Sequence record: OQ031076 | Source: Shigella phage SFP20 | Length of the DNA: 39,499 nucleotides | Direction: 5' to 3' (one strand) | Shown: positions 26,940 to 29,233 of the stretch, piece after piece | How the letters are laid out: every line of letters begins with the position of its first letter | Numbering within the stretch: position 1 is the first letter of the stretch | The notes under the pieces: model-generated | The model's database searches: none | The model's input: the letters and a program-made list of their open reading frames with translations, nothing else | Told to the model about the DNA's origin: nothing | Position numbers and translations under genes: made by a program

Positions 26940-27066
26940 GGGTCGCGTTCAATCCTTCGAGGTCCCGGTCTACGCTAAGTCACTCGACGAGGCGACCTTA
27001 AAGTCTCAGGAATATGAAGATGCTGGTTTCGTGGTAGGCCGCATTCGCCCTGAGCAGAAGCAATAA
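26902..27066 (+). CDS. 2: host RNA polymerase inhibitor (gene 2)
   Basis: 54 aa (below track cut-off); [14 protein letters not shown] ... GFVVGRIRP matches T7 Gp2 (SFEVPIYAETLDEA ... GFEVTRVRP); RBS TAAGGAGG. Confidence 0.8.
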
Positions 27067-27084
27067 ACCCTCACTTTAGGACTA
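27062..27084 (+). promoter_or_regulatory. phage RNAP promoter variant (phi2.5 position), AATAAACCCTCACTTTAGGACTA
   Basis: Family match with TTTA in place of TATA. Confidence 0.65.
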
Positions 27085-27807: not shown

Positions 27808-28260
27808 GTGGCTGCATGGACACCAAAACGGGGGCACTCTGTGGGTGCCTACCGCTCTGGACTTGAGGCCAAGAACCAGCAGTGGCTGGAACAGAACGGC
27901 GTCAAAGCGGAGTACGAAAGCCATTATATCAACTATGTGATTCCGGCTTCCGACCACAAGTACACACCAGACTTCATCCTTCCGAACGGCATCATCGTCG
28001 AGACCAAAGGTATCTTCGACAGTGAAGACCGCAAGAAGCATCTGCTGGTGCGCGAGCAGCATCCTGAGCTGGACATCCGGTTCGTGTTCTCCTCGTCTCG
28101 CTCCAAGCTGTACAAAGGGTCCCCGACCACGTATGGCGCATGGTGCGAAAAGAACGGCTATAAGTTTGCCGACAAGTTTATCCCGGTTGAGTGGCTGAAA
28201 GAGGCGACTGTACGTCTGCCTTCCGGTATCCTCATCCCGAAGAAAGGAGCTAAGAAATGA
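27808..28260 (+). CDS. 3: endonuclease I, Holliday-junction resolvase (gene 3); apparent GTG start
   Basis: 150 aa; VGAYRSGLE, VIPAS.H.YTPDF.LPNGI.VETKG, DRKKHLLVREQHPELDIRFVFSSSRSKLYKGSPT.YG..CEK.G.KFADK match T7 gp3. Confidence 0.93.
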   Translation: MAAWTPKRGHSVGAYRSGLEAKNQQWLEQNGVKAEYESHYINYVIPASDHKYTPDFILPNGIIVETKGIFDSEDRKKHLLVREQHPELDIRFVFSSSRSKLYKGSPTTYGAWCEKNGYKFADKFIPVEWLKEATVRLPSGILIPKKGAKK

Positions 28261-28484
28261 CCTTCAAAGAAGTACAGATTGTCCGTCAGCGCCTGTCCAT
28301 CGACAAGATTCCGGTAGGCTATGCGTTCATCGTTCATGGTCGCCCAGACGAAGTGTACGTGAAGATTAGCAACTCGCACGTCTTCAACCATAAGCGTCTC
28401 CAGATGCACACGACTGTGAGCGAGCGCTTCAAGTCTCACCTGAACCTCGTTATTGTCGAGCTGGTGGTGTACAATGGCAAGTAA
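28257..28484 (+). CDS. hypothetical protein between genes 3 and 3.5
   Basis: 75 aa ORF with coding-like codon usage; ATG overlaps the gene 3 stop (ATGA); no counterpart I recall at this position in T7. Confidence 0.5.
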   Translation: MTFKEVQIVRQRLSIDKIPVGYAFIVHGRPDEVYVKISNSHVFNHKRLQMHTTVSERFKSHLNLVIVELVVYNGK

Positions 28485-28932
28485 GGTTCAGTTCAAACCA
28501 CGAGCTGTGACCGATGCAATCTTCGTCCACTGTTCTGCGACCCAACCGTCTCAGGACATCGGCGTAGACACTATCCGCATGTGGCATAAGCAGCAGGGCT
28601 GGCTGGACGTAGGCTACCACTTCATCATCAAACGTGATGGCACAGTGGAAGAAGGACGCCCGGTCGATGTCGTAGGGTCACACGTTAAGGATTGGAACTC
28701 CCGGTCCGTAGGCGTCTGCCTTGTAGGTGGAATCGACGCCAAGGGCAAGTTTGAAGCTAACTTCACGCCTGCTCAGATGAGCGCCCTACGCAACAAGCTG
28801 GCTGAACTGAAGGTCCTGTACCCTCAGGCAGACATCAAGGCTCATCACGATGTAGCACCAAAGGCCTGCCCAAGTTTCGACTTGCAGCGCTGGCTGAAAA
28901 CTAACGAAATGGTCACTTCCGACCGAGGCTAA
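28474..28932 (+). CDS. 3.5: lysozyme / N-acetylmuramoyl-L-alanine amidase (gene 3.5)
   Basis: 152 aa from the ATG at 28474; near-identity to T7 gp3.5 (VQFK, TDAIFVHCSAT.PSQ, GWLDVGYHFIIKRDGTVE, VGVCLVGGID.KGKF.ANFTPAQM, AHHDVAPKACPSFDL, TSDRG). Confidence 0.96.
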   Translation: MASKVQFKPRAVTDAIFVHCSATQPSQDIGVDTIRMWHKQQGWLDVGYHFIIKRDGTVEEGRPVDVVGSHVKDWNSRSVGVCLVGGIDAKGKFEANFTPAQMSALRNKLAELKVLYPQADIKAHHDVAPKACPSFDLQRWLKTNEMVTSDRG

Positions 28933-28948: not shown

Positions 28949-29161
28949 ATGATTAAGTTTATCGAATTTCTGGGTCGTCTGGTCGTGCGTGGTTATTCTC
29001 GTGCTGCGAGTGTGGAACGAAAAGTCGCATCTGCTGCGGGTAAAGGCGCGGAAGCGGCTGCTGCGGAAGCGGACAGTCTTCGCATCAAGTCTCTGGACGC
29101 TGGCCTCCGCGCTCGTGGTCTGGACAAGAAGGCTGAACAACTGAAGGCTTTCTTCAGCTAA
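28949..29161 (+). CDS. hypothetical protein (gene 3.8 position), Ala-rich
   Basis: 70 aa ORF with RBS AAGGAGA. Confidence 0.5.
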   Translation: MIKFIEFLGRLVVRGYSRAASVERKVASAAGKGAEAAAAEADSLRIKSLDAGLRARGLDKKAEQLKAFFS

Positions 29162-29164
29162 TCT

Positions 29165-29187
29165 TTTAAACACTCACTAAAGGGAGA
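29165..29187 (+). promoter_or_regulatory. phage RNAP promoter, T3-like variant TTTAAACACTCACTAAAGGGAGA
   Basis: Only copy with CACTAAAGGGAGA (T3-type -3..+6) and ACACT at -12..-8. Confidence 0.7.
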
Positions 29188-29233
29188 GGACTTCGGTCTT
29201 TTCCCTTTTGTCGCATTATTGATTAAGGAGTGA

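What the first reader, a model, noticed from the sequence alone, without database searches (positions are those of the whole stretch)
28257..28484. Extra ORF between endonuclease I and lysozyme, translationally coupled on both sides
A 75-aa ORF with good coding character is wedged between gene 3 and gene 3.5. Its ATG overlaps the gene 3 stop (ATGA), and the lysozyme ATG (28474) lies inside its 3' end, so lysozyme translation is probably coupled to it. I recall genes 3 and 3.5 as adjacent in T7.
Basis: partly seen in the sequence, partly recalled or inferred. Interest (0 to 1): 0.4.

Follow-up and report, generated by a model that had tools for sequence, protein, structure and literature searches.

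The report
Conserved small gene 3.2 of K1F-like phages
The extra 75-codon reading frame between the endonuclease and lysozyme genes is a real protein-coding gene under purifying selection, already annotated as a hypothetical protein (gp3.2) in about 200 K1F-like phages; its function is still unknown, so it is an ordinary finding.

Summary
An ATG at 28257 overlaps the endonuclease I stop (ATGA). The frame ends at TAA 28482-28484. The lysozyme ATG (28474) lies 11 nt inside its 3' end.

The window is a Kayfunavirus (K1F-like T7 relative). The ORF is a known but uncharacterised gene: gp3.2 in Cronobacter phage Dev2, 3.01 in CR8, PHROG 15211, present in 219 phage records. T7 and T3 lack it.

It is coding. 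dN/dS is about 0.08-0.12, like the neighbouring lysozyme; variable sites fall mostly at third codon positions; no homologue has a stop.

New here:
- The 75-aa protein is the stand-alone C-terminal domain of a small modular family (14 clusters among 1.84 billion representatives).
- Longer members (132-227 aa) carry unrelated, swappable N-terminal modules.
- The gene always sits directly after endonuclease I.
- A moderate-confidence AlphaFold model gives a basic (pI 9.9), SH3-like small β-barrel with no specific structural relative.
- An invariant polar patch (SNSHxFN…QMHTT…RF) suggests a binding surface.

Translational coupling on both sides is supported by conserved architecture but is not shown experimentally. 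Function is unknown; most likely an accessory middle-gene binding protein. Already known; low interest.

The parts
27059..27082 (+). Phage RNA polymerase promoter-like 24-mer (phi2.5 equivalent). It heads the transcription unit 2.5-3-3.2-3.5-3.7.
   Evidence: One of 12 copies of TTAAACCCTCACTATAGGxA in the window. No copy lies between 27082 and 29162.
27808..28260 (+). Gene 3, endonuclease I. The start is GTG 27808 or GTG 27841, as annotated in relatives. Its stop TGA is at 28258-28260.
   Evidence: Pfam PF05367 at E=1.6e-80. Annotated as endonuclease in Pisces and Dev2.
28243..28249 (+). Shine-Dalgarno AAAGGAG for gene 3.2, 7 nt upstream of its ATG. It is the positional counterpart of the SD that serves lysozyme in T7.
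   Evidence: Sequence. Conserved in all Kayfunavirus loci. The T7 junction reads aaaggaggaaagaaaTAATG.
28257..28484 (+). Gene 3.2: a 75-aa, 8.8-kDa protein of pI 9.9. It is the stand-alone C-terminal domain of the gp3.2 family.
   Evidence: ORF; PHROG 15211 at E=2e-49; 219 phage records; dN/dS 0.08-0.12; AF2 model with pLDDT 74.9 and six beta strands.
28356..28430 (+). Codons 34-58, encoding the family's invariant core: Y34, S38-N39-S40-H41, F43-N44, Q49, H51, T53, R57-F58. Putative binding surface.
   Evidence: These columns are invariant across 20 family members, including the 38-41% identical Providencia-type sequences.
28463..28469 (+). SD-like GGTGGTG for lysozyme, embedded in codons 69-71 of gene 3.2 and 4 nt upstream of the lysozyme ATG.
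   Evidence: Sequence. Val70 and Val71 are GTG in 25 of 26 loci, while Val65 and Val67 vary freely (third-position entropy 1.85 and 1.37 bits).
28474..28932 (+). Gene 3.5, lysozyme (N-acetylmuramoyl-L-alanine amidase). Its first 11 nt overlap the end of gene 3.2.
   Evidence: Pfam PF01510 at E=3.4e-16 and PHROG 822 at E=7.8e-80. Its N-terminus aligns with the T7 gp3.5 start.
28949..29161 (+). Gene 3.7-like small ORF (70 aa), the last gene of the unit.
   Evidence: PHROG 1950 at E=1.1e-22. Annotated as gp3.7 in Dev2.
29162..29204 (+). The next phage promoter-like site (29162-29185), overlapping a hairpin (29182-29204). It marks the end of the unit and resembles phi3.8 plus R3.8 of T3.
   Evidence: Repeat family D1; hairpin; T3 annotation.

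Best explanation
The ORF is gene 3.2 of a K1F-like phage (Kayfunavirus). It is a genuine middle (class II) protein-coding gene inserted exactly at the junction where genes 3 and 3.5 abut in T7 and T3.

Expression. It is co-transcribed with genes 2.5, 3, 3.5 and 3.7 from the phage promoter at 27059. It is translated from the strong SD/ATG that overlaps the gene 3 stop, the same site that drives lysozyme in T7. Its last codons carry a weaker SD (GGTGGTG) and the start of the lysozyme gene. Ribosomes finishing gene 3.2 therefore stop 6-8 nt past the lysozyme AUG and can re-initiate there (inferred).

Product. It is an 8.8-kDa basic protein predicted to fold as an SH3-like small beta-barrel. It equals the conserved C-terminal domain of a modular family whose longer members carry unrelated, exchangeable N-terminal modules.

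Function. The most likely role is an accessory, non-core binding protein. It would dock onto a conserved macromolecular partner (a nucleic acid, or a phage or host protein) through the invariant polar patch SNSHxFN…QMHTT…RF. The N-terminal modules of long forms would add lineage-specific functions and are dispensable.

Shown: the gene is real, conserved, under purifying selection, and fixed in position. Inferred: the coupling, the fold, and the binding role. The partner is unknown.
For: - Identity of the window. It is 93-95% identical to Escherichia phage Pisces, Cronobacter phage Dev2 and other Kayfunavirus genomes, where the ORF is annotated as a hypothetical protein or gp3.2.
- Spread. It occurs in 219 phage records, and about 100 of them have the short-form junction.
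- Coding. dN/dS is 0.118 over all loci and 0.081 among short forms; variation is mostly at third codon positions; there are no stops.
- Family size. An exhaustive profile search of 1.84 billion representatives finds only 14 clusters. All carry the domain at the C-terminus, behind at least 7 unrelated N-terminal types, and one has two N modules.
- N-terminal modules. They hit only this family.
- Position. The gene is always immediately after endonuclease I with an overlapping start, even in distant Providencia-type members where 1-2 other genes separate it from lysozyme.
- Transcription. There is no internal promoter.
- Charge. The C-domain pI is 9.5-10 in Kayfunavirus members.
- Junctions. Both are conserved, with synonymous constraint on GGTGGTG.
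Against: - No experimental or homology-based function exists. Pfam, PADLOC and PDB sequence searches are empty or sub-threshold.
- Foldseek against the PDB gives nothing significant.
- BFVD returns only family members and uncharacterised proteins.
- Providencia-type C-domains are not basic (pI 6.3-8.2), which weakens a nucleic-acid-binding reading.
- Patches of low synonymous variation are common in this region, so the constraint on GGTGGTG is only suggestive.
- The RNA around the lysozyme start has no significant structure (z = -0.72), so coupling may not be obligatory.
- The K1F reference record carries a frameshift in the last ~22 codons. If it is real, the intact protein is dispensable in the laboratory.
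Confidence: 0.8

Rival explanations
1. Counter-defence or host-takeover adaptor. The conserved C-domain would be the effector or docking unit, and the swappable N-terminal modules would recognise variable host targets. The 75-aa form in this window would be the minimal effector.
For: - The gene is lineage-specific and absent from T7 and T3.
- N-terminal modules are exchanged, duplicated, internally deleted or lost.
- It sits among class II genes. From general knowledge of T7, this region holds several small host-interference proteins (gp2, gp4.5, gp5.5, gp5.9).
Against: - No similarity to any characterised protein.
- About half of the genomes carry the short form with no variable module.
- N-module type does not follow host genus. 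E. coli phages carry at least three types plus the short form.
- The C-domain evolves under ordinary purifying selection, not diversifying selection.
Confidence: 0.2
2. Nucleic-acid-binding accessory factor of phage DNA metabolism. A small basic beta-barrel that would assist or modulate endonuclease I or recombination.
For: - The pI is 9.5-10 in all Kayfunavirus members.
- The SH3/KOW/L2-like fold class is often used for nucleic-acid binding.
- The gene always directly follows endonuclease I and overlaps it, in all 14 clusters.
- It lies within the DNA-metabolism gene block.
Against: - Providencia-type C-domains are near neutral.
- Adjacency to gene 3 may only reflect one ancestral insertion site.
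- The invariant residues are mostly S, N, H, T and Q, not K or R.
Confidence: 0.2
3. The ORF matters mainly as a translational spacer that tunes lysozyme synthesis; the peptide itself would be irrelevant.
For: - It took over the SD/start that serves lysozyme in T7.
- Lysozyme is left with a weaker, embedded SD and an 11-nt overlap, and both are conserved.
Against: - Strong purifying selection acts on the amino-acid sequence along the whole domain, and 15 residues are invariant at down to 38% identity.
- The domain is kept in Providencia-type phages where it is not adjacent to lysozyme.
Confidence: 0.05
4. A chance ORF or mis-annotation, with conservation due to a non-coding element or to the antisense 93-aa ORF.
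For: - Spurious ORFs of similar length are common in this region.
- A patch of low synonymous variation spans codons 33-51.
Against: - dN/dS is 0.08-0.12 in this frame only.
- The other frames carry stops, and the antisense frame has stops in 14 of 26 loci and dN/dS 0.85 in the rest.
- Patches of low synonymous variation are equal or stronger in endonuclease I and lysozyme.
- There is no promoter and no significant RNA structure.
Confidence: 0.02

Closest known systems
Kayfunavirus hypothetical protein gp3.2 (Cronobacter phage Dev2 CDM12540 / YP_009005126; Pisces QEG09572; Citrobacter phages SH4/SH5 ORF18; PHROG 15211)
   Same: It is the same gene: 96% identical to the Pisces protein, with the same length, the same ATGA and 11-nt overlaps, and the same position.
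   Different: Nothing of substance. The window's copy has one extra residue (MTFKEV… against MTKEV…). None of these records assigns a function.
Long-form homologues (K1F 'unknown' AAZ72978, CR8/CR44b gp3.01, vB_EholP_HHH XFC52569; PHROG 16385)
   Same: They share the C-terminal 66-70 residues (70-84% identity) and the same position and overlaps.
   Different: They carry an extra N-terminal module of 60-150 aa, of several unrelated types, plus a Pro-rich linker (PQVLPASSVPPVTVKRE). The window's gene lacks both.
T7 and T3 gene 3 / gene 3.5 junction
   Same: The flanking genes are the same. The same SD (AAAGGAG) lies at the end of gene 3, with a start that overlaps the gene 3 stop.
   Different: In T7 and T3 that start belongs to the lysozyme gene. 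Here it belongs to the inserted gene 3.2, and lysozyme starts 217 nt further on behind a weaker SD.
SH3-like small beta-barrel domains (FeoA, DtxR/IdeR C-terminal domain, EF-P/eIF5A KOW-like domain, ribosomal protein L2 C-domain)
Small lineage-specific class II accessory proteins of T7 (gp2, gp4.5, gp5.5, gp5.9; from general knowledge, not tested here)
   Same: They are also small proteins encoded among the DNA-metabolism genes, non-core, and act by binding a partner.
   Different: No sequence or structural similarity was found to any protein of known function, and the target is unknown.

Membership tests
Kayfunavirus gp3.2 family (PHROG 15211 short form / PHROG 16385 long form) | Significant full-length match to the family profile | tested here: met
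   PHROG 15211 at E=2e-49 over residues 4-75 of 75. PHROG 16385 at E=3.1e-32 against the C-terminal 70 positions of the profile.
Kayfunavirus gp3.2 family (PHROG 15211 short form / PHROG 16385 long form) | Invariant core motif Y…SNSHxFN…QxHxT…RF | tested here: met
   All 15 invariant columns of the 20-sequence alignment are present in the window protein.
Kayfunavirus gp3.2 family (PHROG 15211 short form / PHROG 16385 long form) | Position immediately downstream of endonuclease I, with a start that overlaps its stop | tested here: met
   ATGA at 28257-28260. The same arrangement is seen in 30 or more loci.
SH3-like small beta-barrel fold | Five or six-stranded barrel that superposes on known SH3-like domains with a convincing score | tested here: inconclusive
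   The ORF is in a different frame from lysozyme. Lysozyme aligns with T7 gp3.5 from its first Met.
Translationally coupled overlapping gene pairs (termination-reinitiation) | Stop of the upstream gene within a few nt of the downstream start, with an SD inside the upstream gene | tested here: met
   ATGA overlap plus AAAGGAG for the 3 -> 3.2 pair. An 11-nt overlap plus GGTGGTG for the 3.2 -> 3.5 pair.
Translationally coupled overlapping gene pairs (termination-reinitiation) | Downstream translation depends on upstream translation | not testable with these tools
   This needs reporter fusions or ribosome profiling. The RNA fold around the lysozyme start shows no significant occluding structure (z = -0.72).
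Pfam Imm11 (immunity protein of polymorphic toxin systems) | Score above the Pfam gathering threshold | tested here: not met
   13.1 bits against a cut-off of 22.1, E=0.059, over 27 residues only.
Known defence-system proteins (PADLOC-DB) | Match to any model | tested here: not met
   No hit for the window protein. Only two weak hits (E of 0.002-0.003), and those are to N-modules of two long forms. No anti-defence library was available.

The most novel reading that the evidence does not exclude
The gp3.2 family would be a modular host-interference or counter-defence adaptor of K1F-like phages. The invariant SH3-like C-domain, which is all that this window encodes, would be the effector or docking unit. 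The exchangeable N-terminal modules would retarget it. Its fixed translational linkage to endonuclease I and lysozyme would set its dose relative to those two enzymes.
Probability: 0.2. Interest if true: 0.55.

Novelty: already known. Interest (0 to 1): 0.22.

Why it matters
The gene itself is already annotated, so finding it adds nothing new. Its modest value lies in three points.

1. It shows how a T7-like phage accommodated an inserted gene. The insert took over the lysozyme ribosome-binding site and supplies a new one inside its own 3' end. That may alter the dose of lysozyme, which in T7 also regulates the phage RNA polymerase.

2. gp3.2 turns out to be the minimal form of a narrow family with shuffled domains and no known function. 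It is under strong purifying selection in about 200 phages that are candidates for therapy.

3. A conserved 75-aa stand-alone domain is an easy target for pull-down and structural work that could assign a function to the whole family.

Tried and rejected
- RNA structure that would occlude the lysozyme RBS: the fold of 28400-28520 is not better than shuffles (z = -0.72).
- A nucleotide-level element inside the ORF. Codons 33-51 show low synonymous variation, but endonuclease I and lysozyme have equal or stronger patches, so this is regional heterogeneity and not a special element.
- Antisense 93-aa ORF 28158-28439: stops in 14 of 26 relatives and dN/dS 0.85 in the rest.
- Internal phage promoter: none lies between 27082 and 29162. 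The sigma-70 and terminator scans are at chance level.
- A gene 3-3.2 fusion by -1 frameshift: the sequence AAG AAA TGA is not a classical slippery heptamer (inspection only), so this was not pursued.
- N-terminal module related to the C-domain by ancient duplication: hhalign aligns only 18 columns at 21% probability. Inconclusive.
- Pfam Imm11: sub-threshold.
- First AF2 run with 9 close sequences: pLDDT 39, unusable.
- The afdb50 fold library was not available.
- Six completed literature searches found only a genome-table mention of gp3.2 without a function (PMC4925675).
- PDB sequence searches found nothing.
- No clear relation between N-module type and host genus.

Full report
**What is there**

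- A 75-codon ORF runs from ATG 28257 to TAA 28482-28484.
- Its ATG overlaps the TGA of the upstream gene (ATGA, 28257-28260).
- An in-frame TAA two codons upstream (28251-28253) rules out a longer form.
- A strong Shine-Dalgarno sequence, AAAGGAG (28243-28249), lies 7 nt before the ATG.
- The downstream gene's ATG (28474) lies 11 nt inside the ORF's 3' end, preceded by GGTGGTG (28463-28469).

The flanking genes are endonuclease I (Pfam PF05367, E=1.6e-80) and a T7-type amidase/lysozyme (PF01510, E=3.4e-16; PHROG 822, E=7.8e-80).

**Is it more than chance?**

ORF length alone is not. The same 3 kb contains spurious ORFs of 86-95 aa, one of them antisense to this ORF. Comparison with relatives settles it.

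The window is a K1F-like phage (Kayfunavirus). It is 93-95% identical over 1.1 kb to Escherichia phage Pisces, Cronobacter phages Dev2 and GW1, Citrobacter phages SH4 and SH5 and many others. The ORF is annotated there as a hypothetical protein, and as gp3.2 in Dev2. tblastn finds it in 219 phage records, and it matches PHROG 15211 at E=2e-49.

Across 26 distinct loci:
- The 63 non-overlapping codons of the domain have 19/15/50 variable sites at codon positions 1/2/3.
- Median Nei-Gojobori dN/dS is 0.118, against 0.062 for endonuclease I and 0.105 for lysozyme in the same loci.
- Among the short forms alone, dN/dS is 0.081.
- The other forward frames carry stops in every relative. The antisense frame has stops in 14 of 26, and dN/dS is 0.85 in the rest.

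So it is a real protein-coding gene under purifying selection.

**Relation to T7 and T3**

In T7, genes 3 and 3.5 overlap as TAATG behind the SD aaaggagg. In T3 they also overlap directly. The window has the homologous SD and overlapping start, but here they serve gene 3.2. The gene is therefore an insertion exactly at the 3/3.5 junction, and it brings a new, weaker SD for lysozyme inside its own last codons.

The lysozyme N-terminus (MASKVQFKPR) aligns with T7's MARVQFKQRE from the first Met.

**Expression context**

Twelve phage-promoter-like 24-mers (TTAAACCCTCACTATAGGxA) occur in the window. One is at 27059, before gene 2.5, and the next is at 29162, before gene 4. None lies in between. 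Genes 2.5, 3, 3.2, 3.5 and 3.7 therefore form one middle-gene transcription unit.

Both junctions are conserved in essentially every Kayfunavirus locus examined (AAAGGAG-N7-ATGA and CTGGTGGTGTACAATGGNAAGTAA). The two Val codons that make up GGTGGTG are GTG in 25 of 26 loci, whereas Val codons five and three positions upstream vary freely (third-position entropy 1.85 and 1.37 bits). This fits an embedded ribosome-binding site and termination-reinitiation coupling.

Two cautions apply. Patches of low synonymous variation are common in this region. The RNA around the lysozyme start is not unusually structured (z = -0.72). Coupling therefore remains a well-supported inference and is not shown.

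**The family**

A profile search that read all 1.84 billion representative proteins found only 14 clusters. All carry the domain at their C-terminus.

Members other than the short form are 132-227 aa long.
- They have at least seven mutually unrelated N-terminal modules, joined in Kayfunavirus by a Pro-rich linker (PQVLPASSVPPVTVKRE).
- One member has two modules in tandem.
- Some have internally deleted modules.
- The N-modules hit nothing outside this family.

The 75-aa protein of the window begins precisely at the first strand of the conserved domain. It is thus the domain on its own, and about 100 of the ~219 phage records share this short junction.

Fifteen residues are invariant down to 38% identity. 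They cluster in Y34, S38-N39-S40-H41, F43-N44, Q49, H51, T53 and R57-F58.

In every context recovered, the gene directly follows endonuclease I with an overlapping start. In the distant Providencia-type members, one or two further genes separate it from lysozyme.

**Structure and function**

- With nine close homologues AlphaFold failed (pLDDT 39).
- With 20 sequences it gave a moderate-confidence all-beta model (pLDDT 74.9, pTM 0.61, six strands).
- Foldseek against the PDB gives nothing significant.
- BFVD returns only family members and uncharacterised phage proteins.
- Pfam, PADLOC and PDB sequence searches are empty or sub-threshold.
- The protein is basic (pI 9.9). The C-domain pI is 9.5-10 throughout Kayfunavirus but 6.3-8.2 in the Providencia type.
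- Six completed literature searches found only a genome-table entry (PMC4925675).

**Most likely mechanism**

The most likely role is an accessory middle-phase binding protein. It would use the invariant polar patch of an SH3-like barrel to dock onto a conserved partner, and the N-terminal modules of long forms would be optional additions.

The rivals are as follows.
- A counter-defence or host-takeover adaptor is favoured by the module shuffling. It is weakened by the frequent module-less form and by the absence of a host correlation.
- A nucleic-acid-binding helper of endonuclease I or recombination is favoured by the charge, the fold class and the fixed adjacency. It is weakened by the neutral Providencia forms.
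- A mere translational spacer is contradicted by the protein-level constraint.
- A chance ORF is refuted.

**Verdict**

The gene is already known as an annotated hypothetical protein. The added value is its domain architecture, its predicted fold class and its insertion logic. Interest is low.

Noticed in passing
window 4340, 11625, 17101, 20760, 24261, 25967, 27059, 29162, 31523, 35572, 38393, 39369 (+): Twelve copies of a 24-nt phage-RNA-polymerase promoter-like sequence (consensus TTAAACCCTCACTATAGGxA), all on the + strand. They give the transcription map of the phage.
   Followed up: partly
window 29162-29204: The promoter-like site before gene 4 overlaps a hairpin, GGGAGAGGACTTCGGTCTTTTCC. 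The arrangement resembles the phi3.8 promoter plus RNase III site R3.8 annotated in T3.
   Followed up: no
L027 (K1F, DQ111067) about 1640-1645; window equivalent about 28412: The K1F reference record has one extra C in the gp3.2 homologue (CACCACCGG against CACCACGG in relatives). This shifts the frame of the last ~22 codons. It is either a sequencing error or a tolerated mutation.
   Followed up: partly
phage records OR786095 (Staphylococcus phage MBBL139), PV615262 (Acinetobacter phage vB_Aba_01KA), MT350292 (Enterococcus phage EFA-1): Records labelled with non-enterobacterial hosts carry Kayfunavirus-like DNA (OR786095 is 89% identical to this region). The host labels look doubtful.
   Followed up: no
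whole window: The window is about one genome length (39,499 bases, against 39,497 for Pisces) but circularly permuted. Gene 3 lies at 27.8 kb here and at 10.1 kb in Pisces.
   Followed up: no
window 27808-28260 (endonuclease I), codons about 32-55: A run of more than 20 codons has no synonymous variation at all among 21 otherwise diverged Kayfunavirus loci. This could reflect a recombination sweep or a nucleotide-level constraint. Unexplained.
   Followed up: no
window 27808 vs 27841: The endonuclease I start is ambiguous. The longest ORF starts at GTG 27808, and the Pfam match covers it from residue 1. Relatives are annotated from the position equivalent to GTG 27841.
   Followed up: no
L026 (Providencia phage PSTCR2) 2178-2751; L031 3456-3812: In Providencia-type relatives, one or two further uncharacterised small genes are inserted between the gp3.2 homologue and lysozyme. 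The gene 3 to 3.5 interval is therefore a recurrent insertion site.
   Followed up: no
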